From Trypanosoma brucei (taxonomy: Eukaryota): a stretch of 64,000 bases of DNA. Location of the stretch: NCBI GenBank assembly GCA_000002445.1, contig CM000207.1:2080001-2144000 (forward strand). The letters run 5' to 3'. This document shows positions 40,410 to 56,917 of the stretch, piece after piece; position 1 is the stretch's first letter, and every line of letters begins with the position of its first letter. The notes under the pieces were generated by a model that was given only the letters and a program-made list of their open reading frames with translations, was not told the origin of the DNA and did no database searches. The position numbers and the translations under genes were made by a program.

Positions 40410-40982
<573 letters not shown>

Positions 40983-41184
40983 TTATTTTTTGACTACCGT
41001 TTTGCAGCACATACACAGAATGTTATCCCACAGAAAATTTAAAGGATTGAAACACTTCCTTAGCACAACAATGCACGACAGAACAAGAGCAACAAAACTG
41101 CACCACAATACAATCACAAGCTCACAATTTTCGCTTGTTCATCATATAATGAAACTAAAATATAACATCACAAATCACGCGCCG

Positions 41185-41757
<573 letters not shown>

Positions 41758-41976
41758 TTACTTTTGGTTACGGTCCTTCCACACACACACACACAGTGTT
41801 TGCTGAGGGGTAATAAGAAAAATGGTGAAATGCTAACAGTCACACGACGCTGTACAAAGAGAGCGTTTTTCCTGCAACAGGTGTCCATTAACTTAGCGGC
41901 ATTTACTTCAATTGGAGGGCACATCACCAGAACAATCACAACAAGGAAAACAAAACCTAAGAGTTTCAGCGGAGTA

Positions 41977-42549
<573 letters not shown>

Positions 42550-42770
42550 TTACTTTTGGTTACGGTCCTTCCACACACACACACACACAGTGTTTGCTGA
42601 GGGGTAATAAGAAAAATGGTGAAATGCTAACAGTCACACGACGCTGTACAAAGAGAGCGTTTTTCCTGCAACAGGTGTCCATTAACTTAGCGGCATTTAC
42701 TTCAATTGGAGGGCACATCACCAGAACAATCACAACAAGGAAAACAAAACCTAAGAGTTTCAGCGGAGTA

Positions 42771-43343
<573 letters not shown>

Positions 43344-44265
43344 TTACTTTTGGTTACGGTCCTTCCACACACACACACACAGTGTTTGCTGAGGGGTAAT
43401 AAGAAAAATGGTGAAATGCTAACAGTCACACGATACTGTACAAAGATAGGAATGTAGAAACAGCGTGTTAAGTTGTAACGTAAGTGGACTGCAATTGACA
43501 AACGAAATATAGTTTGTCGGGAGGGCAGCACTGCCTGTTGCTGGCATTTCCGGATACTTCAAGTTAGGTCAGTAATATTCGGCAGAGGGAACTGTACCAG
43601 GTGTATCCTTTTTGTAAGTCTGTTGTTCCTCATATTAATTTTTGGCTATCCCCCTGGTCCTCTCTCTTCGTGCGTGGCACCGACTGTAAGTACGATCTTA
43701 GTCTGGAGGAAAAGAACGAAACGTGGACTCCTCTCTGACTATATCTCATTTTTAAACTGGTGAGCTATCCCTTAGCTGAAGGGTCAGGGCAGGTCAGCGC
43801 AGAGTTTCTAAACCGAATTCCTGACTGCATTGCGTCTGCTTAATGTGTCAGCGTCATTATCTGTTCTCTTTACGGGGGGGTGGGGGGTCAACGACGTGGA
43901 ATGATGAGGAATATTTATTAGGAGAAAATAATTATTTTAATATAGGGATGCAAGATAAATGTAAAGTTCGATCCAAAAAAAAACACCAAGACGCTGCCTA
44001 AAAGCACTGCGGAAACGGTTCGCCGAACCAGGCATATTCTACGCAAACAAGAGAGGGGAAACACAAAGGAGGGAAGGAAAAGTGATCAACGAGGAATGAT
44101 GAATAGTGCACCAATGAGCTAACAAATGGTGTTATGTGTACTACCCTGCCGTTTATTCGGTGCTAAATGAAGTGTAACATGAGGCCACGTCATCACGGAG
44201 ACTGAAGGCTAACAGCACTGCCACTGCCATGCGCACATGTGCGCTGAATCAGGAAAACGCCGGAG

Positions 44266-45431: not shown

Positions 45432-46313
45432 CTACGGATAAGGTGCCAGGAAGCGAACCTCAGGCACGGACTGTTGCGGTGATTTCTGCCAGCTGCTGTG
45501 GGCATGAAGCCCTTCATTCATATCGTTACGGCGAATAGTATCTCTCCATATTCCGATGCGGAAATATTTAGTATTCTGTGAGAAGCGCCAAGGAGTTCCG
45601 TTTCGTGGATTGTGACCGACAAATTCAGTCAGTTTGGGGCCGCGCTGCAGCTCATCGATAAACATATACCGCATTCGTGTCCAAGGACGCGGTACTAGTG
45701 GCGACTCGGCAAGATCACACTTCATGCCATAACGTCCGAGTGTCGCACGTAGAGACTCGTTGCGACGGACATTTGGATTTTCGGGCAACTTCCCGTAAAG
45801 CAAACCCCCCGGCCGCAGCTCACTGAACAGTGTGCATTGCTCGATTGCGTCCATGCCGAGCCGCAGATCCAACTCACCATCTCTTGTCCTCATGTCCCAA
45901 GTACCCTCCGGCACAAAATACGGGTTCAGCACAACAGGTACACTTTGACCGGTGATGTATAAAACGACGGGGCCAGCTATAATCGCATTTGCTTCATTCC
46001 GCCCAACAGATGGCGACCCTGATGCAAAGCCGCCCTTCTGAGGCCTCGCCTCCTTTTTACCTCCATTGGAGGTTGCGTTGGGTAAAGACACATGCACAGT
46101 CTCCTCCACAAAATAGCCTGTTGGTAGTCTAAGTGAGGGACTACGAAGTAATTCTAACCAACTAAGCGGCAAAACGGTCCGTTTGAATGTTGGATCCACA
46201 ATCGCGTCCTCAACACGAATCGACCGCCTATGGTCACGGGAAAGCACTTTATACTCCACAAACATATCCCCACCACTCATCCTGAATTGCCGTAAAAAGG
46301 TACGGCACAGCAT
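45432..46313 (-). CDS. Hypothetical protein (293 aa), possible mitochondrial targeting N-terminus
   Basis: Complete ORF colinear with the transcription unit. N-terminal MLCRTFLRQFR. No recognised domain. Confidence 0.5.
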   Translation of the reverse strand: MLCRTFLRQFRMSGGDMFVEYKVLSRDHRRSIRVEDAIVDPTFKRTVLPLSWLELLRSPSLRLPTGYFVEETVHVSLPNATSNGGKKEARPQKGGFASGSPSVGRNEANAIIAGPVVLYITGQSVPVVLNPYFVPEGTWDMRTRDGELDLRLGMDAIEQCTLFSELRPGGLLYGKLPENPNVRRNESLRATLGRYGMKCDLAESPLVPRPWTRMRYMFIDELQRGPKLTEFVGHNPRNGTPWRFSQNTKYFRIGIWRDTIRRNDMNEGLHAHSSWQKSPQQSVPEVRFLAPYP

Positions 46314-46832: not shown

Positions 46833-47111
46833 TCATTTTCCGGGGAACTGGGCATTCTTCTGCTGCTCGAGGAGTTCCGCAAACTTGGCCTTGAAGTGCT
46901 CTGAGTGCTCGCGCATCTTCTTGTTGAACTTGTCCGTGTGCTCCTGGATCATTTTTTCGAACTTTTCATAGTGCTCTTTCATCTCAGGGGACAGCGTAGC
47001 CTCATCAGGCTTGTCAGCGAAGAATCGCTTGTTCTGCTCCTCCATCTTCTTGGCGAATTCGGCATCGAGGCGGTCGAGCTTCGCAGCAAATTCTTCGTAT
47101 GTAGTGGCCAT
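46833..47111 (-). CDS. KMP11: Kinetoplastid membrane protein 11 (KMP-11), array copy 1
   Basis: 92-aa MATTYEEFAAKLDRLDAEFAKKMEEQNKRFFADKPDEATLSPEMKEHYEKFEKMIQEHTDKFNKKMREHSEHFKAKFAELLEQQKNAQFPGK, recognised as the KMP-11 family (characteristic length, MATTYEEF start, amphipathic helices). Confidence 0.9.
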   Translation of the reverse strand: MATTYEEFAAKLDRLDAEFAKKMEEQNKRFFADKPDEATLSPEMKEHYEKFEKMIQEHTDKFNKKMREHSEHFKAKFAELLEQQKNAQFPGK

Positions 47112-47425
47112 GTTTCTTGAAAAAGTATCTTAAAGTTTAGTTTACTCTTGAAAGCACAATCTAAACGAAATGAAAAGTAGCGAAACGGAAAGGAAAGAAA
47201 AGAAAAAACGATATAGGTCAAGCAAGTGGCAGTACAAGTGGTGGAAGAGGTAAGTAAAAACTGCGCCACGGCAACACATGATCCGGGACGTTATTTTAGA
47301 GATATCAATAGTTTGACAGAGGTAGCCCCCTTGCAAAGACACCAAAGAGGTGGAATTTAGTAACATAGTGCCCGGAAGGACCTCTAATAAGAGAGAAAAG
47401 AAACAAAAGGAGAGTGTTTTCGAAA

Positions 47426-47704
47426 TCACTTTCCGGGGAACTGGGCATTCTTCTGCTGCTCGAGGAGTTCCGCAAACTTGGCCTTGAAGTGCTCTGAGTG
47501 CTCGCGCATCTTCTTGTTGAACTTGTCCGTGTGCTCCTGGATCATTTTTTCGAACTTTTCATAGTGCTCTTTCATCTCAGGGGACAGCGTAGCCTCATCA
47601 GGCTTGTCAGCGAAGAATCGCTTGTTCTGCTCCTCCATCTTCTTGGCGAATTCGGCATCGAGGCGGTCGAGCTTCGCAGCAAATTCTTCGTATGTGGTGG
47701 CCAT
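47426..47704 (-). CDS. KMP11: KMP-11, array copy 2
   Basis: Protein identical to copy 1. Confidence 0.9.
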   Translation of the reverse strand: MATTYEEFAAKLDRLDAEFAKKMEEQNKRFFADKPDEATLSPEMKEHYEKFEKMIQEHTDKFNKKMREHSEHFKAKFAELLEQQKNAQFPGK

Positions 47705-47998
47705 GTTTCTTGAAAAAGTATCTTAAAGTTTAGTTTACTCTTGAAAGCACGATCTAAACGAAATGAAAAGTGGCGTAACGGAAAGGAAAAAGGAGGAGCA
47801 ACTTATTCAGGGATAAGGGATAGGGAGGCACACCGAAGTGAACGGGACAAGTAAGTTAACAGTGGCAACCAATATTAATTCATATACTCATGCATTGCGC
47901 TAGAAAAGTGGTATTTACATCTTTTAAAAGATTTTTATAGTATTATCCCTAGGGACTCTAACATAGGAAAGAAAATGAGAGGTGTAGTAAATTTGTAA

Positions 47999-48277
47999 TC
48001 ATTTTCCGGGGAACTGGGCATTCTTCTGCTGCTCGAGGAGTTCCGCAAACTTGGCCTTGAAGTGCTCTGAGTGCTCGCGCATCTTCTTGTTGAACTTGTC
48101 CGTGTGCTCCTGGATCATTTTTTCGAACTTTTCATAGTGCTCTTTCATCTCAGGGGACAGCGTAGCCTCATCAGGCTTGTCAGCGAAGAATCGCTTGTTC
48201 TGCTCCTCCATCTTCTTGGCGAATTCGGCATCGAGGCGGTCGAGCTTCGCAGCAAATTCTTCGTATGTGGTGGCCAT
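47999..48277 (-). CDS. KMP11: KMP-11, array copy 3
   Basis: Protein identical to copy 1. Confidence 0.9.
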   Translation of the reverse strand: MATTYEEFAAKLDRLDAEFAKKMEEQNKRFFADKPDEATLSPEMKEHYEKFEKMIQEHTDKFNKKMREHSEHFKAKFAELLEQQKNAQFPGK

Positions 48278-48537
48278 GTTTCTTGAAAAAGTATCTTAAA
48301 GTTTAGTTTACTCTTGAAAGCACGATCTAAACGAAATGAAAAGTGGCGTAATGGAAAGGAAAGAAAAGAAAAACGATAAAGGGGAAAAAGTGTTACAGGT
48401 AGAAGTTGGTTCTAGGATAAACAAATGACTGCACAAATGTAAGGGGGGGAATCAAATGAATTGGCACGTCGCTCCCGCACCAGTGGTGACATGGTGGAAG
48501 AAACCATCACTTAACCTTGTCGCGCTCCCCGTCCTGG

Positions 48538-49557
48538 TCATTGTCTAGGAATAAGGACATTACCAAACGGGTCGACGAATCCTGCCACTTTTGCGTTGGT
48601 GTGTTCCATCATGTTTGCCATGCTGCGCAATACCTCATGCTTCTTCACCAATTGTAGGTTCTCACCATCCACCATCACCTGCGCACGGGGTTTGTGCACG
48701 GATAAATAATAGCTAACGCACTGAGATTGTTCGGTAACCTTCCAACCGTTTTGTTCTTCTTCACCAACCGCGACAGTTACTTGAAGGCCGTGACCCTCTG
48801 AAGCTAGTTCAAGAAGCCGGATTCCAACTGCTCTGGGAACAGTAATGAGCGCTTCATCATCACATACACGACGCAATGACAACATTTCCCCCATCGTCAG
48901 ATGCCGAATCGCAAGAGCAACATCGAAGAAGAGGTCGGCAACCGACCGCAGCACCACCGCAGAGCCAAACCTTGCAACGGAGGGATCCGACCCACCCACC
49001 TCCTCCTCGCCCCTCGGTCCCTCCTTCCGCACAATTTCTCCAATGCCTCCAAGAAAGTTTCCATATAAATGTGTTGGTATGCCAACCAGTCGAACCTCCA
49101 TCTCATGGACGGCGGCTTCAACATTGGGAGGCGGTCGCTTTCGACCTCCTGCTGAGTCAAAGTTGTCATCACGTATGCCGCACCGCAGTTGTTCATACGC
49201 CTTGCGTCCCTCCTTCTCACACTCACGCTGTCCAGAAACGGCAACCGAGCCAACGACGTTGAGCATAACAACAGTGTCTCCCACTAAAAAGTCCACACGC
49301 CGAGCTGCATCAGCGGCGGCTTTTGTTTCGTAGTCAATTAGCGCTGCGCCTGAAGATACAAAGGGGTTTTCCGCAGCTCTTTTCCGCTTTGCTGGCCCCT
49401 TCCTAATACCAGGAGCCGCAGCCCCGTTGTCGCCAGGTCGCGTGATGAGCAACGCATTAACCACCGCGTCACCACTTGAATGGGCACGCACATAGTCGTA
49501 AAACTCCTCTGCAGTGATGTGCAGAGGAATATTGGTGGCGAGCAGGCGGCAGTGCAT
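48538..49557 (-). CDS. Hypothetical protein (339 aa)
   Basis: Complete ORF in the transcription-unit orientation, ordinary composition, no recognisable motif. Antisense ORFs 48845..49333 and 48876..49262 are shadows. Confidence 0.5.
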   Translation of the reverse strand: MHCRLLATNIPLHITAEEFYDYVRAHSSGDAVVNALLITRPGDNGAAAPGIRKGPAKRKRAAENPFVSSGAALIDYETKAAADAARRVDFLVGDTVVMLNVVGSVAVSGQRECEKEGRKAYEQLRCGIRDDNFDSAGGRKRPPPNVEAAVHEMEVRLVGIPTHLYGNFLGGIGEIVRKEGPRGEEEVGGSDPSVARFGSAVVLRSVADLFFDVALAIRHLTMGEMLSLRRVCDDEALITVPRAVGIRLLELASEGHGLQVTVAVGEEEQNGWKVTEQSQCVSYYLSVHKPRAQVMVDGENLQLVKKHEVLRSMANMMEHTNAKVAGFVDPFGNVLIPRQ

Positions 49558-51066
49558 ACTTTACTAAAGAACAGTAGGTTATCACAAACTGACTGCAATG
49601 GGTGATTTCTGAGGAGGGAGGAAAGGAAAAAAAAATGCTAAAAAATGATTCCTCAACGTAACATGAGAAGGTAGAGACAGTACCGCAGCGACAAAAGGAA
49701 CAAAAAAACAATAATGACAGCGATAACGACGATAATAACGATAATAACGATGCCAACGACTGGACCAGCAGACACCCGCGTTAGTAAAAGGAGAAACATA
49801 TCACATGTATCCCAGCCAATGCGATATCATAACACTCTTACAAACGAAAAGGAGTAGTACAGAAGAGATATACAAAAGACTTAAGGATGTAAAAACGGGG
49901 AGAGGGGCGGGTTCAGAACGACGCCACATTAAGTGGTACAAATGGCGAGTTCAAGTGCAATTTATGAGTGAAGAGAAGCACCCACGACCGCGGCAGTTGG
50001 CACAAAAGCAGCCGTTAGATACGGAGGAAAACCGCCACGGCGTCGGTCACCACCTGAATTCTCTCATGCCCTTTTCCTTCCTTGCGTCCCTCAAATCCTC
50101 CCTAAATCAACGCCTCTCGGAATCCTCGATGGTTCATGTGATGAATGCGGTTCAAGCGAGATAACTTACAACAGTGCTTATATCACTGACAATAATCCGA
50201 CTATCCCATAACACCTTTCACGCATAATGTCACACATGTCACTAGGTGGCACGCACTGAAAAGAGCCCGTCAAGAAAAGACGATCCCTAATCCCTCACGT
50301 AATTCCTTTTCGCCCAGTCCCTGAAAGAGAAGAGGCGGAGAAAAAAAAAAGAAAAAAGAAAATAAATGCGCCATAACACTAACTAACTTGCGAGTGAGTG
50401 AGTGAGTGGACAAGAAAGATACAACATAGCCATATCAATCACTTAACAATCCCAACAAAATTATAAACACACACACACACACACCTTCACGTGCACGTGG
50501 GCAAATGCATTACCACCTATCCTTTCCTTCCCATCATAACAGTCATCATCCCCCTCCACCATTCCGTCCACTTCTCAACGCCTTTTTCCCCTTTTTCCCC
50601 ATTTTATTCTTTTTTTTTTGCATTTTTCCTGCTTTTTTTTTTTTTGCGTTCTCGCACCAGTAGGTGAGCACCGACAAAGAGAAGAAAGAGAGTAATATAT
50701 GTATATATGTAATTTCCCGCACACAAAAAACAAAGAAGCAAAAAGAAAATGGATGCAAGACGTTAGAAATCCCTACACCACTAACTTGGATTTTTGCATC
50801 TTTTCCGTTGACTACTGACATTGTCTCCACTCAAAGAATAAGAGGGGTCACATCTCTATTCTCATCTCTCTTCTAAGTACACATCAAAAAAGGTACAAAA
50901 AGAAAAAGCAAAGACAAACACACACACACACACACACAAAGGAAAATAATTTAAAAAAAACAAAAATTAAAAAATCAAACGAAGCCGTAATCACCCTTCT
51001 TTTGATACAAACAATCAGGCGTCAAACAACATTTGTTTCTCTCTTCCCACACGAGCCAGATGTATA

Positions 51067-51090
51067 AATATATATATATATATATATATA
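51067..51090. repeat. (TA)12 microsatellite within the 4.5 kb ORF-free gap
   Basis: atatatatatatatatatatatat read directly. Nearby (GT)n at 51117-51129, (CA)n at 50468-50485 and 50921-50940, (TAG)5 at 51243-51258. Confidence 0.9.
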
Positions 51091-54076
51091 CATCTATACG
51101 TCCGTACGCGTATGTATGTGTGTGTGTGTTTGTGTGTTCGCATGCTTCACCTTCATCTCCCCCACAATTATGTACTTCGATCTCTCATTATAAACAAAAA
51201 AGACAAACAAAAACAAAATAGACCGAACGGACAGACAGACATGTAGTAGTAGTAGTAGGAAAAACGAAAAAAAAAACAAAAGGAAGAAAATAAGAAAAGG
51301 GCCAGACAGAGAGATAACAGCGGTGACAGCAAGACACCCACGAATAAAGCACGCACACATACACACACACACATATTTGATTATTTAAAGAAAAAAAAAC
51401 ATCAAGTGAGCCAATTTTTATTCCCCCTTCTGCTCTCCTCAGAAGCGCAGCACGAAAAAAAAAAAGGAATAAAAGTTGGCTACACATTCATCGGTACTTT
51501 TTTTTTCTTTTTCTCATTATCCCGCTTAGTTCAACTGTCAGGGCTCACGTCACCACTCACTCATATTGAAAGAAAGATAAGGGAAGGTTAGAGTATGAAA
51601 GCAAAAGGAGGAAAGGAAAGGAAAGGAAGGGAAAGAAAAGGAGGCGAGAGATCGAAAAATTAAAAAGAAAACGAAAGGAAAGGTAAAGTGAAGGTGAAGG
51701 TGAAAGGTAAAGAAGTAGTGACGAACAAAAAAAATTCAAAAATCAAGTGAGGGAGTCTATGCATGTGTACGACAAAAAGAAGTTGTGTTGACAAACTACA
51801 CACACAAATGCAGTCATTTACACAAGCATGTGTACGTGCACATTCACCTCTCGAAAGACCCTCCACGCGCCCAGACACCGAACAGCGTGTAACTTGTGAA
51901 TAAATATAGAAAGAAAAAAAGAACCAAAAAAAAAAAAGCTTGCATCTTGTGGAAGCTGACTACCATTTTGTTATAAGCGTTTGCATGGAGGGAGGAGGAA
52001 GGAAAAAGATTTGAGGCTAAGGATTAAATAACATCACACATGTCCAAATAGAAGTGGTGCCGTAACCTCTTTCCACTCAATTCCTTTGGTACGCGAACAC
52101 ATACGTATATATAATATATATATAATATATATAAATATATATATTGCCTTCGCCACCCTGAAACAACAACAAATGAATCACACCGCGCATAAAACCCACC
52201 TTATCCTCCTCCTTCCCTTCCCTTCCCTTCCCTCCCTCCGACTCCTCACCTATTTATTTCTTAATTATTATCATCTCTCCTTCTCCAATATTACACAAAC
52301 GCCGCAAAGTAAAGTAACGCATTTTGGGTCCCTTCATCCTCCTCCTCCTTCTCCTTCTTTTCCAACCTAAACTCATCCCTACCTCCCGTTAATCACTCTT
52401 CGCTTGTTTCCTTTCTTTTTTTTTAAAAAAAAAAAGAGAGAAAAGAAAACAAATGTGTTCGACTCTTTGATTACCTGGATTCTTTCTTCAGATTTTGGCT
52501 GAGGTTGGTGTCTTCATTTTTCCTTTTTCTTTTTTTCTTTTTTTTTTTCGTTGTAAAAAGTAACCTCCACACACGCAGACAACTTTCCCCTTTTCTCGCT
52601 CAACACTAAATGTAATAAATTTCATCCTCCCCCCCCCCTCTTCTTCTTCCATAAGTCGTTGCGTACAAACAAAACAAAACGGAAGGAGGAAAGGAGGGGA
52701 AAAAAAAACAAACAAATCGTGCAGCCCTCACCACCCTCGCAAACTTATTCAGACGAAACGACTACTTGTGGACAAAATTATGAAAAAAATCTCAACCTCA
52801 CAATAACAAAGAAACACACAAAAAAAAAATGTGAGAAAGGGAGAAGATAGAGAAAGGGAGAAAGAGAAGTGACTAAACACTTCAAAACATACGTACAAGC
52901 GCATAAGCATATACACATATCCTCCTCCTTCCTTTCAGCTTCCTTTTACCGCTCTCTCACTTACCTTTCTCCATCAACTCCCCTTTGAGCATTTCCAACG
53001 CGTCCCCTACAACTCAAATTTCAAGTATTGACCCCTCCCTCAAAGAACAGAAGAAAAAAAAAAAAGAAGAACAAAAAAAAAAAATGGAGTCACTCTATCT
53101 GCCTCGCCTCACAATAAATCGGTTCACACCAGACCTCACTTTCATCCCTTATCATTCACTATGCGATAAAGCTTTAAAGTCGCACCTAATACAGAACTGT
53201 CTCCTTTTGCTTCATTGTTGCTTTTCAATTCCCCATACCCGCTCTTTCCTACTCAACCTTCCTTCAACACCCCCATCTCCCCAGTCCGAACCGTCTACAT
53301 TTACCTATCGATTTATTTTTTAAGGGTCCCTCATTCTTTTTTTTTTCTTTCCTCCTCCTCCTCCTCCTCTCCCCTTCTCCATTCACCATTCCATCCCCAT
53401 CACATACACGCATACGCATACGCATACGTTTCTTTTTCTTTTTCCTTTTTGTTTCCCCCCCCCCCAACACACACACACACGCACCAACTTCCCATATTCA
53501 CGTATCCATCTCCTTTTCCTCTTCCTCGTGTGTAAAAGTTATATTTCCCCTCACGTTATGCAATGGTGCGTGTGAGAGGGAAAGCAAGGGGGAAAGGGAG
53601 AAAAAGAAAGAAAAAAAAAAAAGAAAACCACCGCAGAGAGTCACGTGCCGCTGCGCGCGGTTTGGTCCGGTGTGGTTGCCGGAAATTCCTCGCAACCTTC
53701 TGAACCCAGATTTGCTTTCGCCCCTCTTTTTTTTTCTTTTCTTTTATCTTATCTTATTTTTGCGCTGTGCTGTGCGTGCTTTGTTTTGTTTTGTTTTTTT
53801 TCCTTTTCCCCACTTCCACACCCTTCCCTTCACACCCCCCTCCCTTCTCTCTCTCTTTCTCACACACACACAAACACACGCGAACACACGCACACAAACA
53901 CGCGCAACCCCACGCATCATTTTAAGCTTCTGCGTCTTCATTTACTCCCCCCCCCCTAACATTAATTATATATCGCACCCTCACTTTTATACCCGCCCAC
54001 ATTCGCAAGTCACGTGTTCCCCCCCCCCTGATCTCAAGCACCCCCGTCGTCTTTTATCGTTCTTTTCTTCACGATT

Positions 54077-54994
54077 TCATGAAGTGGATTTATTGTCAAG
54101 ACGGACATTCATTGCCCTGTTCGCCATCTCAATTCCATCGAACTCCTCTATGGCAACACGGGTTTCCTCCTCTGTCTTCATTACAACAATACCCATACCA
54201 CGGCTCTTTCCATTACGTCCCATGATAATCTCAGCGCGTTCCACTTCGCCAACCTGCTGGAACGTTTCTCGCAGCGCTACACTGGTGCAGTCAAACGGAA
54301 GATTTGATACAAACAATTTGCGACCGACTTCGTTCATTTGTTTGCTGCGTGGCTTTGGCACTACCTCATTCACATCGTTGAAGACACCCGAATTCCCATC
54401 ATCGGGTAAGGCATATCCACCGCGATTCACGTAACCACCACCACGACCGAAGTTTCCCGCGCTATTATTGTATGATGTCATATTAGCGTTCGCATTCCCG
54501 AATCCCCGCATTCGCTGCTGATGCTGCTGCTGCTGCTGTTGTTGTTGCTGTTGTTGTTGTTGCTGATGTGGCGGATGATGTTGTTGTTGATGATGCTGCG
54601 GTTGTTGCAACTGCCCCTGCCGAACGTACGGAGGCATCATTTCCCGCTGCACCAACTGTGGCCGTGGCCCGTCATCAAAAAGACGGACGATAAGTCGTCT
54701 CCCTTCGAAGTCGGTTTCATCAAACATGCGAATGGCTTGCAGGGCGTCTTCCCTAGTGGCCATCGTCACCAACGCGGAGCCCTTCGGACGGCCCGTCTTG
54801 TCGGCGATAAGATCCGTGTAACGAACCTTTCCAGCACTTCTGAAGTGATCCTTCACATGCTGCCATGGGGTTTGAAAGGGGATGTTGCCCACAAAAAGAA
54901 TGTTGCCGTGGTTCTGGCGACGGTCACCATCTTCAGGATCACGCTGGGGACATGATGCAGATGAATGCTCGTCGAACATATTTCCTCCTTGCAT
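54077..54994 (-). CDS. Two-RRM RNA-binding protein with poly-Gln linker (DRBD-type; possibly the DRBD2/Gbp2-like protein of trypanosomes)
   Basis: RRM1 ILFVGNIPFQTPWQHVKDHFRSAGKVRYTDLIADKTGRPKGSALVTMATREDALQAIRMFDETDFEGRRLIVR. RRM2 KLFVSNLPFDCTSVALRETFQQVGEVERAEIIMGRNGKSRGMGIVVMKTEEETRVAIEEFDGIEMANRAMNVRL. Q-tract QQPQHHQQQHHPPHQQQQQQQQQQQQQQHQQ. Start placed at ATG 54994 (MQGGNMFDEHSS); ATG 54979 is an alternative. The ORF-track start 55081 adds a K-rich low-complexity extension. DRBD2 naming is from memory and unverified. Confidence 0.75.
   Translation of the reverse strand: MQGGNMFDEHSSASCPQRDPEDGDRRQNHGNILFVGNIPFQTPWQHVKDHFRSAGKVRYTDLIADKTGRPKGSALVTMATREDALQAIRMFDETDFEGRRLIVRLFDDGPRPQLVQREMMPPYVRQGQLQQPQHHQQQHHPPHQQQQQQQQQQQQQQHQQRMRGFGNANANMTSYNNSAGNFGRGGGYVNRGGYALPDDGNSGVFNDVNEVVPKPRSKQMNEVGRKLFVSNLPFDCTSVALRETFQQVGEVERAEIIMGRNGKSRGMGIVVMKTEEETRVAIEEFDGIEMANRAMNVRLDNKSTS
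54515..54610 (-). repeat. CAG/CAA (Gln-coding) trinucleotide repeat inside the RRM protein CDS
   Basis: Plus strand ctgctgatgctgctgctgctgctgttgttgttgctgttgttgttgttgctg... read directly. Confidence 0.85.
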
Positions 54995-56038: not shown

Positions 56039-56533
56039 CTAGTTTGGGACCTTTAGTTTACCTTCCTGAACCTTCTCCTGAATCGCTCGCGGGTGTTCGC
56101 CATCAATTGTGCAACCGATGGAAACGGCAGTGCCAAGTACCTCCATCACCACAGATTTCATGCTGGCACCCATAGAGTTCGGCGCCGACTCCTTCGCAAT
56201 CTTCAGAATCTCAGAGAAGGCGATGTTACCGTCATGCTTAATATTCTTCACCTTCTTGCGATCACGCGGTGGCTCCTTCAGCGCACGGATCAGCCTTGAG
56301 GCGACGGATGGCGTGACGATGACGGTAGCCACACGGTTCTTCACGCGCAGCTGACACGTAACCTTGAGACCCTTCCAGTCCTTCGTGGACTTGGCGATAT
56401 CCTCACCGATTTTTTTCGCATTCAGGCCGAGCGGACCGACTTTGGGGGCGAGTGACGCCGTTGCAGGCACTTCACCACCCACAGCACGGACGACGACTGT
56501 GATCTCCTGATTGGGGTCAAACTTGGGGGGCAT
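56039..56533 (-). CDS. RPL12: 60S ribosomal protein L12 (uL11)
   Basis: [115 protein letters not shown]... is near-colinear with human RPL12 ([37 protein letters not shown]...). ATG at 56533 verified (atg ccc ccc aag ttt). The ORF-track start 56698 adds 55 spurious residues. Confidence 0.85.
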   Translation of the reverse strand: [164 protein letters not shown]

Positions 56534-56917
56534 CTTCCAGGTTTTGTTTTCCCTTCCAGAAATAAAAGGATACGTTAAAAGAAGAAGAGAGGATCGAGGG
56601 GAGAGAGAAAGATGCAAATCACAGCGTGTCCTGCGCGAGAGAACAAGAGGGCATAAGTTCGAAGCAGTGAACCACAGCAAACAACGAAAAGTCAACATGC
56701 ATGTGTGAAAGTGTGGAATGAATACAAGAGTAAATCAATTTCCTCGGTGGGTGGTCGCTGCAAAACCTTCGCGCCCAGGTTAGTGACGCCCAAGAGCATT
56801 ATATCTGCGAGCTCGCGCCAAGAGGTGGAAAGGGAAAGCAAAACTTTACGAAGTATCCGCTACCACGTGCCGCCGACGGTACCAGACGCATACCCCATAT
56901 AATTCCCCCCTGTGCTG

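What the first reader, a model, noticed from the sequence alone, without database searches (positions are those of the whole stretch)
49558..54076. 4.5 kb ORF-free, microsatellite-laden gap inside the transcription unit
This is the longest non-coding stretch in the window. It contains (CA)n, (GT)n, (TA)12, (TAG)5, homopolymer runs, and long plus-strand pyrimidine-rich blocks (52200-52400, 53200-53500, 53700-53950). It has no ORF with normal composition on either strand. A spacer this long could be an extremely long regulated 3' UTR of the two-RRM protein gene, which would be interesting because such RNA-binding proteins are often autoregulated. It could also hold a site of non-coding transcription, or be an assembly-fragile region.
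Basis: seen in the sequence. Interest (0 to 1): 0.5.

Follow-up and report, generated by a model that had tools for sequence, protein, structure and literature searches.

The report
Long 3' UTR of trypanosome DRBD2

Summary
Window 49558-54076 is the longest spacer between coding sequences in a one-strand (minus) trypanosome transcription unit. It is rich in microsatellites and has no coding signal on the transcribed strand. Published cloning primers identify the upstream gene as T. brucei DRBD2 (Tb927.9.13990, CDS 54077-54994). The downstream gene is NufB2 (Tb927.9.13970). Trenaman et al. 2024 annotate a 3,656-nt DRBD2 3' UTR, curated with nanopore RNA reads. That places the poly(A) site near window 50421. 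A 40-nt polypyrimidine tract plus AG lies 59-100 nt further on, as trypanosome processing rules predict. Two fragments of this UTR were positive regulators in their reporter screen. The last ~860 nt are a short spacer, then either a long uAUG-laden NufB2 leader or an orphan processed RNA. No conserved ORF or known RNA family was found. Orthologous spacers are also long (1.1-6.1 kb). A short-read T. equiperdum assembly breaks at the (TA)n tract. Verdict: already known, low interest. The one untested lead is autoregulation through enriched (UG)n tracts.

The parts
54077..54994 (-). DRBD2 (Tb927.9.13990) coding sequence: 305 aa, two RRM domains and a polyQ linker.
   Evidence: Published cloning primers drbd2-f and drbd2-rv (PMC12876127 supplement) match 54974-54994(-) and 54080-54099(+) exactly. 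Pfam finds RRM_1 twice.
50421..54076 (-). DRBD2 3' UTR of about 3,656 nt. The poly(A) site falls near 50421, give or take about 25 nt, because the window may not be exactly colinear with Tb927_09_v5.1.
   Evidence: UTR coordinates 2183293-2186948(-) come from Trenaman et al. 2024, Supplementary Data 1. That annotation was manually curated with nanopore direct RNA-seq, spliced-leader reads and poly(A) reads.
51653..54063 (-). Reporter-assay fragment lying fully inside the UTR (Tb927_09 2184525-2186935). It was positively selected: log2FC 5.35, FDR 0.052. It includes the purine-rich proximal kilobase.
   Evidence: The mRNA-sense purine fraction is 0.57-0.75 over 54076-53077.
50259..51223 (-). 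Reporter-assay fragment covering the distal 802 nt of the UTR plus the native downstream splice signal (2183131-2184095). It was positively selected: log2FC 3.99, FDR 0.052.
50321..50362 (-). Polypyrimidine tract (50362-50323, broken by one G at 50336) followed directly by AG (50322/50321). This is the inferred trans-splicing signal that sets the DRBD2 poly(A) site 59-100 nt upstream.
   Evidence: The roughly 100-nt poly(A)-to-polypyrimidine rule is from Clayton 2019.
49611..50320 (-). Stretch between the distal and proximal splice signals. It is either a long NufB2 5' leader isoform or an orphan processed non-coding RNA. This is inferred, not shown. Together with the 51-nt proximal leader it makes a 763-nt leader carrying 10 upstream AUGs.
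   Evidence: The scheme is Clayton 2019, Fig. 3d/e.
49805..50164 (+). Antisense 119-aa ORF, annotated 'hypothetical protein, unlikely' (EAN77265.1). It is probably not a gene.
   Evidence: It has no Pfam match, has no match in the T. cruzi, T. theileri or T. vivax spacers, and runs against the direction of the transcription unit.
49609..49635 (-). Proximal polypyrimidine tract (25 nt) plus AG (49610/49609). It is the predicted main splice acceptor for NufB2 and would give a 51-nt 5' UTR without upstream AUGs.
48538..49557 (-). NufB2 (Tb927.9.13970) coding sequence, 339 aa.
   Evidence: The TriTrypDB 3' UTR sequence of Tb927.9.13970 matches 48508-48538(-). The name comes from PMC8748868. The protein is an exact match to EAN77264.1.
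51063..51137 (.). Adjacent (TA)n and (TG)n microsatellites. They are the break point of the short-read T. equiperdum OVI assembly.
   Evidence: Contig L005 ends at window 51063 and contig L006 starts at 51072.

Best explanation
The window is a Trypanosoma brucei-group chromosome 9 polycistronic unit transcribed right to left, on the minus strand. About 81% of the gap (54076 down to about 50421) is the 3' UTR of the DRBD2 mRNA. As in all trypanosomatids, the poly(A) site is not set by its own signal. It is set by the next functional trans-splicing signal, here the polypyrimidine tract 50362-50323 plus AG 50322/50321. In mRNA sense the UTR is a mosaic of A/G-rich polypurine tracts, U-rich polypyrimidine tracts, (UG)n and (UA)n repeats, and G10-11 runs. 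Published reporter data show that pieces of this UTR raise expression. In that study the dosage of A-rich polypurine tracts tracks translation efficiency. Inferred steps: the 17 internal polypyrimidine tracts are normally not used as splice signals, perhaps because proteins such as DRBD18 mask them. The remaining ~860 nt hold about 60 nt of spacer, the distal splice signal, and a ~0.7 kb stretch that is either a poorly translatable long NufB2 leader or an orphan spliced and polyadenylated RNA. The productive NufB2 mRNA is probably spliced at 49610/49609.
For: Gene identities rest on published primers and UTR sequence. The 3,656-nt UTR annotation and the two positive reporter fragments come from Trenaman et al. 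2024. The polypyrimidine tract plus AG lies 59-100 nt downstream of the mapped poly(A) site, which matches the T. brucei rule. The transcribed strand shows no coding signal. No peptide or nucleotide block is conserved with T. cruzi, T. theileri or T. vivax. Rfam gives no hit at gathering threshold and only sub-threshold noise at permissive E-values, and there are no tRNAs. In the 3' UTR, proxy A-rich polypurine 9-mers occur at 7.1/kb against 2.2/kb in the other spacers; over the whole gap, tracts of at least 12 nt number 24 purine and 19 pyrimidine against 2.8 and 1.7 in shuffles. The DRBD2-downstream spacer is the longest, or tied for longest, in its neighbourhood in T. cruzi (3.0-3.4 kb), T. 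theileri (2.1 kb), Leishmania (6.1 kb) and Angomonas (1.1 kb). Clayton 2019 states that mRNAs for RNA-binding proteins often have 3' UTRs of several kb and that these UTRs are riddled with low-complexity sequence.
Against: I saw no RNA reads myself; the UTR end comes from a published manual annotation. The window is not perfectly colinear with Tb927_09_v5.1. Two other UTR rows in the same table do not map onto CDS ends with the same offset: one is off by 24 nt, the other by about 540 nt. The poly(A) position in window coordinates is therefore approximate. The reporter hits have FDR 0.052, under the authors' 0.1 cut-off but from small counts. Shorter alternative poly(A) isoforms using internal polypyrimidine tracts are not excluded. 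The fully internal reporter fragment worked without the native downstream splice site, which shows that internal tracts can act as processing signals.
Confidence: 0.9

Rival explanations
1. Part of the gap yields independent non-coding RNAs that are trans-spliced and polyadenylated. The strongest candidate is a ~0.6 kb RNA running from the distal acceptor (50321) to a poly(A) site about 100 nt upstream of the proximal polypyrimidine tract (around 49740). Minor RNAs from internal polypyrimidine tracts of the UTR are also possible. This can coexist with the main explanation.
For: Two strong polypyrimidine-plus-AG signals lie 712 nt apart upstream of NufB2. A leader starting at the distal site would carry 10 upstream AUGs. 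Clayton 2019 describes exactly this outcome when two signals are both used. DRBD18 depletion produces such UTR-derived RNAs for more than 200 genes.
Against: I obtained no transcript evidence. The region has no conserved sequence or structure. Such by-products are often unstable. The lncRNA catalogues could not be queried because their supplements are not held.
Confidence: 0.3
2. The gap hides a missed or frameshifted protein-coding gene. The annotated 119-aa antisense ORF would be one candidate.
For: GenBank carries the 119-aa ORF as a gene model in T. b. brucei, T. b. gambiense and T. equiperdum. A 295-codon stop-free frame exists on the plus strand.
Against: The genome project itself labels the ORF 'unlikely'. 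It is antisense to the transcription unit. It has no Pfam hit and no tblastn match in orthologous spacers. The 295-codon frame has no Met, is low-complexity, and arises because a 74-77% pyrimidine strand cannot spell stop codons. Stop-free frames on the transcribed strand are at chance length. No gene is called in the gap in T. cruzi or T. theileri.
Confidence: 0.03
3. The length is an assembly artefact, for example an expansion or a mis-join at microsatellites.
For: A short-read assembly breaks at the (TA)n tract. Contigs from other samples stop at homopolymers.
Against: Two independent T. equiperdum contigs cover 54076-51063 and 51072-49558 at 98-99.5% identity and abut within 8 nt, so they reproduce the 4.5 kb. 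The published 3,656-nt UTR was curated against long RNA reads. Orthologous spacers are long in four other genera or species.
Confidence: 0.03
4. The gap contains an internal RNA polymerase II start region or a chromatin boundary inside the unit, marked by runs of G on the sense strand.
For: Four of the window's six sense-strand G runs of 9 nt or more (all are 10-11 nt) lie in the proximal 1.5 kb of the gap. From my own knowledge, G runs and GT-rich DNA have been linked to trypanosome start regions.
Against: Genes on both sides run in the same direction with no strand switch and no tRNA. The G runs lie inside an mRNA mapped as continuous. I consulted no histone-variant or nascent-RNA data.
Confidence: 0.03

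Closest known systems
T. brucei RBP10 3' UTR (7.3-8.5 kb)
   Same: It is a multi-kilobase 3' UTR of an RRM-protein mRNA with many polypurine and polypyrimidine tracts. Several separate fragments have regulatory activity in reporters. Its internal polypyrimidine tracts are normally ignored by the splicing machinery.
   Different: RBP10 is bloodstream-form specific and its UTR has been dissected experimentally. DRBD2 is not reported as stage-specific in anything I read, and its UTR has only genome-scale reporter data. It is about half the length and lacks the UAUUUUUU motif (0 in 3.66 kb).
Class of long 3' UTRs on mRNAs for RNA-binding proteins and protein kinases in T. brucei (for example ZC3H20/21/22, over 4 kb)
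   Same: Length is several kb against a median of about 400 nt. Low-complexity content is high, and the gene encodes an RNA-binding protein.
   Different: None of substance; this is one more member. Whether its length serves regulation or merely lowers mRNA abundance is open for the whole class.
Positive-regulatory 3' UTRs rich in A-rich polypurine tracts (Trenaman et al. 2024)
   Same: Both DRBD2 UTR fragments are positive hits in that screen. Proxy A-rich polypurine 9-mers are 3.2 times denser than in neighbouring spacers, and U-rich tracts co-occur.
   Different: I used a simple proxy (9 purines with at least 6 A), not the authors' motif matrix. I did not retrieve DRBD2's own translation efficiency.
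Autoregulated RNA-binding-protein mRNAs in animals, such as ELAV/Hu, TDP-43 and CELF-type GU-rich-element binders (from my own knowledge)
   Same: An RNA-binding protein whose own long 3' UTR contains candidate binding motifs. DRBD2 bound a GU-rich element in pull-downs, and its UTR has five (UG)n tracts.
   Different: There is no evidence that DRBD2 binds its own mRNA. The published element appears to be of the GUUUG type, which is not enriched here (3.3/kb against 2.3/kb in the other spacers).

Membership tests
Trypanosomatid long regulatory 3' UTR of an RNA-binding-protein mRNA | Lies directly downstream of the CDS, on the same strand, inside a polycistronic unit. | tested here: met
   All ORFs are on the minus strand. 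The DRBD2 stop codon is at 54077-54079 and the gap follows it.
Trypanosomatid long regulatory 3' UTR of an RNA-binding-protein mRNA | The mature mRNA 3' end maps several kb downstream of the stop codon. | tested here: met
   The published curated annotation gives 3,656 nt. I read this from the paper's table and did not verify it against reads.
Trypanosomatid long regulatory 3' UTR of an RNA-binding-protein mRNA | A polypyrimidine tract plus AG acceptor about 100 nt downstream of the poly(A) site. | tested here: met
   A 40-nt tract at 50362-50323 with AG at 50322/50321 lies 59-100 nt past position 50421.
Trypanosomatid long regulatory 3' UTR of an RNA-binding-protein mRNA | The sequence alters reporter expression. 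| tested here: met
   Two fragments were enriched under positive selection, with log2FC 3.99 and 5.35 and FDR 0.052. These are published data, not my experiment.
Trypanosomatid long regulatory 3' UTR of an RNA-binding-protein mRNA | A high density of low-complexity polypurine and polypyrimidine tracts. | tested here: met
   There are 24 purine and 19 pyrimidine tracts of at least 12 nt, against 2.8 and 1.7 in shuffles.
Known structured non-coding RNA gene (snoRNA cluster, tRNA or other Rfam family) | A match to a curated covariance model or tRNA model. | tested here: not met
   There are 0 hits at gathering score in the whole window. At permissive E-values only miRNA-model matches to repeats appear, at 20-28 bits against gathering scores of 55-230. 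ARAGORN finds nothing.
Protein-coding gene | An ORF on the transcribed strand longer than chance, or a peptide conserved in the syntenic region. | tested here: not met
   The longest frame is 99 codons against a shuffle mean of 104. tblastn gives only short low-complexity matches. The longest frames have no significant Pfam hit.
Conserved cis-element or lncRNA by phylogenetic footprint | Alignable sequence blocks in orthologous spacers of other Trypanosoma species. | tested here: not met
   blastn and nhmmer against T. cruzi, T. theileri and T. vivax return only low-complexity matches. T. congolense, the most useful distance, was not available.
Autoregulatory RNA-binding-protein 3' UTR | The protein binds its own mRNA and changes its level or translation. 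| not testable with these tools
   I have motif counts only: five (UG) tracts of at least 5 units, and enrichment across species with p = 0.0017, found post hoc.
Retroelement remnant (ingi/RIME/SIDER-like) | Similarity to element consensus sequences, or dispersed copies elsewhere. | tested here: inconclusive
   No segment of the gap recurs elsewhere in the window, and the longest frames show no reverse-transcriptase-like domain. I had no element reference sequences to compare.

The most novel reading that the evidence does not exclude
DRBD2, recently reported as a candidate GU-rich-element-binding protein, regulates its own mRNA through the (UG)n tracts in its 3' UTR. Such tracts recur in the non-alignable DRBD2-downstream spacers of T. 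cruzi, T. theileri and Leishmania at about four times the density of neighbouring spacers. That would make this a conserved autoregulatory loop maintained by microsatellites rather than by conserved sequence.
Probability: 0.1. Interest if true: 0.45.

Novelty: already known. Interest (0 to 1): 0.15.

Why it matters
It matters little beyond correct annotation. The region shows how a sequence-only scan of a trypanosome genome will flag long, repeat-laden 'empty' spacers that are in fact 3' UTRs of regulatory genes. These should be read in mRNA sense, where plus-strand pyrimidine blocks become the polypurine tracts tied to translation. The only lead that might repay work is possible DRBD2 self-regulation through GU repeats. 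It is cheap to test with existing RNAi lines and reporters.

Tried and rejected
1. Rfam at gathering score on the whole window and at permissive E-value on the gap gave nothing credible. Trypanosomes are not known to have miRNAs, and every match sits on a repeat.
2. ARAGORN found nothing.
3. Nucleotide (blastn, nhmmer) and peptide (tblastn) comparison with syntenic spacers returned only low-complexity matches.
4. Logan contigs carrying DRBD2 or NufB2 were checked for spliced-leader sequence, to map splice sites directly. None had it; they look genomic and stop at homopolymers.
5. I looked for per-gene UTR or lncRNA tables in several papers. No supplements are held for the ZC3H28 paper, the two DRBD18 papers or the Guegan lncRNA paper. 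The gene is absent from the Bishola Tshitenge tables. It is also absent from the stored part of the ARE/GRE tables.
6. A single coordinate offset between the window and Tb927_09_v5.1 works for DRBD2 but not for two other rows of the same table. I therefore treat mapped positions as approximate.
7. GUUUG-type GU-rich elements are not enriched, so the autoregulation idea rests only on (UG)n tracts.
8. The gap shares no dispersed repeat with the rest of the window.
9. The many purine/pyrimidine inverted pairs (279 in all; for example 51607-51642 with 52204-52239, 81% complementary) are what low-complexity tracts produce. I did not treat them as evidence of a defined structure.
Full report
**What the window is.** Every ORF of 150 aa or more lies on the minus strand. 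Coding parts have about 50% G+C and spacers about 40%. The proteins are trypanosomatid. Five window proteins were looked up by exact sequence. Four are in the collection and match T. brucei brucei TREU927 entries, one of them a protein whose T. b. gambiense and T. equiperdum versions differ. The exact DRBD2 sequence was not found by that look-up. The window is therefore part of a T. brucei-group chromosome 9 polycistronic unit transcribed right to left, and every feature in the gap has to be read in minus-strand (mRNA) sense.

**Check of the observation.** The interval 49558-54076 (4,519 bp) is the longest spacer between coding sequences; the next longest is 2,384 bp.
- There are 41 simple-repeat tracts covering 11% of the gap. 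Dinucleotide-preserving shuffles give 3.0 +/- 1.5 tracts, and the other spacers average 3.9% coverage.
- The three plus-strand blocks are 74-77% pyrimidine.
- On the transcribed strand the longest stop-free frame is 99 codons, which is chance level.
- On the plus strand, a 295-codon frame without Met reflects the lack of purines needed for stop codons.
- A 119-aa ATG ORF (49805-50164) is in GenBank as 'hypothetical protein, unlikely'. It has no Pfam match and no counterpart in other species.

**Identities of the flanking genes.**
- The right-hand gene has two RRM domains. Published cloning primers for T. brucei DRBD2 (Tb927.9.13990) match its first and last codons exactly. The CDS is therefore 54077-54994, encoding 305 aa.
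- The left-hand gene is Tb927.9.13970. Its TriTrypDB 3' UTR sequence matches 48508-48538. It has been named NufB2, a NUFIP-body protein.

**What the gap is.** Trenaman et al. 2024 re-annotated T. brucei 3' UTRs by hand, using nanopore direct RNA reads together with spliced-leader and poly(A) reads.
- Their Supplementary Data 1 gives the DRBD2 3' UTR as Tb927_09_v5.1:2183293-2186948 on the minus strand, which is 3,656 nt.
- Anchored at the stop codon, this puts the poly(A) site near window 50421.
- The sequence agrees independently. In mRNA sense, a 40-nt polypyrimidine tract (50362-50323) followed directly by AG (50322/50321) lies 59-100 nt downstream. In T. brucei, poly(A) sites are placed about 100 nt upstream of the active trans-splicing signal.
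- The same table lists two fragments of this UTR as enriched under positive selection in a genome-scale reporter assay. One lies fully inside the UTR (about window 51653-54063, log2FC 5.35). The other spans the distal end plus the native splice signal (about 50259-51223, log2FC 3.99). Both have FDR 0.052 against the authors' cut-off of 0.1.

**Composition in mRNA sense.** The proximal kilobase is 57-75% purine and the region 52076-50827 is U-rich.
- The whole gap holds 24 polypurine and 19 polypyrimidine tracts of at least 12 nt, against 2.8 and 1.7 in shuffles. Of these, 23 and 17 lie inside the annotated 3' UTR.
- In the 3' UTR, a proxy for the A-rich polypurine motif occurs at 7.1/kb, against 2.2/kb in the other spacers.
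- In the cited study, the dosage of such tracts correlates with translation efficiency. Long UTRs rich in both tract types are over-represented among mRNA-binding-protein genes.
- Clayton 2019 states that mRNAs for RNA-binding proteins often have 3' UTRs several kb long, against a median of about 400 nt. The same review says trypanosomatid UTRs are riddled with low-complexity sequence.
- The gap is thus a typical member of a described class.

**The remaining ~860 nt.** Beyond the poly(A) site come about 60 nt of spacer, the distal splice signal, and 763 nt up to the NufB2 ATG. A second polypyrimidine tract (49635-49611) with AG (49610/49609) sits 51 nt before the ATG. A leader starting at the distal site would contain 10 upstream AUGs. 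I infer that productive NufB2 mRNA uses the proximal site. The intervening ~0.7 kb would then be either a poorly translated long-leader isoform or an orphan spliced and polyadenylated RNA, as in Clayton's scheme. This is not shown by any data I could reach.

**Other things looked for.**
- Rfam gives no hit at gathering score, only sub-threshold matches of miRNA models to repeats, and there are no tRNAs.
- There is no alignable block or conserved peptide against the syntenic spacers of T. cruzi, T. theileri or T. vivax.
- No repeat is shared with the rest of the window.
- Spacer length, however, is conserved in kind. The DRBD2-downstream spacer is the longest, or tied for longest, in its neighbourhood in T. 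cruzi (3.0-3.4 kb), T. theileri (2.1 kb), Leishmania (Viannia) (6.1 kb, with no NufB2 match) and Angomonas (1.1 kb).

**Assembly.** In the short-read T. equiperdum OVI assembly, the DRBD2 contig ends at window 51063 and the NufB2 contig begins at 51072, inside the (TA)n tract. Both contigs are 98-99.5% identical to the window. The region is fragile for short-read assembly, but its length is real.

**A lead, not a finding.** A 2026 paper reports that DRBD2 binds a GU-rich element in pull-downs and that its knockdown lowers the target mRNA.
- The DRBD2 UTR has five (UG) tracts of at least 5 units, against none expected in shuffles.
- Across five species, such tracts number 14 in 17.2 kb of DRBD2-downstream spacer and 7 in 34.8 kb of neighbouring spacers. 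The one-sided binomial p is 0.0017, or 0.018 against spacers of at least 1 kb.
- This test is post hoc, uses small numbers, and is confounded by spacer length.
- The published element appears to be of the GUUUG type, which is not enriched here.

**Caveat on coordinates.** With the offset that fits DRBD2, two other UTR rows of the same table miss CDS ends by 24 nt and by about 540 nt. The window is therefore not exactly colinear with Tb927_09_v5.1, and positions mapped from that table are approximate.

**Verdict.** The feature is already annotated and functionally profiled, and it belongs to a well-described class. Interest is low.

Noticed in passing
window 52629-52638, 53455-53465, 53947-53956, 54019-54028: Four of the window's six C runs of 9 nt or more (all are 10-11 nt) on the plus strand cluster in the proximal 1.5 kb of the DRBD2 3' UTR. 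In the mRNA these are G10-11 runs. Their role is unknown; they could be G-quadruplex-forming or protein-binding tracts.
   Followed up: partly
window 54514-54607 (inside the DRBD2 CDS): The polyQ-coding (GCT/TGT)n tract varies in length. A 97%-identical protein from Logan samples ERR7929156 and ERR7929163 is 297 aa rather than 305 aa, lacking 8 glutamines.
   Followed up: partly
window 40410-43322: Tandem array of four near-identical ARF-type small GTPase genes (183-188 aa) with a repeat unit of about 793 bp.
   Followed up: no
window 46833-48277: Three tandem 92-aa genes of unidentified function. Arrays of two to four 91-92-aa genes are called at the same syntenic position in T. cruzi, Leishmania and Angomonas.
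   Followed up: no
window 45432-46313: The 293-aa protein clusters at 90% identity or more with 'ms61', a chain in solved T. brucei structures (6HIV chain DN). Some UniRef records for the same cluster call it 'Trans-sialidase', which looks like a mis-annotation.
   Followed up: partly
window 56534-56917 and 43323-44265, compared with L001, L002: T. cruzi and T. theileri have a Metallophos gene between the NARG2_C-like gene and the ribosomal L11-family (Pfam Ribosomal_L11) protein gene, and a protein kinase gene after the Rpn13 gene (in T. theileri it lies between Rpn13 and ARF). Neither is present at these positions in the window, so synteny differs locally.
   Followed up: no
window 56039-56698: The mechanical 219-aa ORF for the ribosomal L11-family protein is extended at the N-terminus. 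Orthologues are 164 aa, so the real start is probably the internal Met near 56533.
   Followed up: no
L010 10829-16947 (Leishmania (Viannia)): tblastn finds no NufB2 homologue downstream of DRBD2. The spacer to the next called gene is 6.1 kb. NufB2 may be lost, too diverged, or uncalled there.
   Followed up: partly
window 53190-54074 (+): A 295-codon stop-free frame without a Met, antisense to the DRBD2 3' UTR. It is produced by 74-77% pyrimidine content and shows how strand-biased low-complexity DNA creates long false ORFs, such as the 254-aa GTG ORF at 53670-54434.
   Followed up: yes
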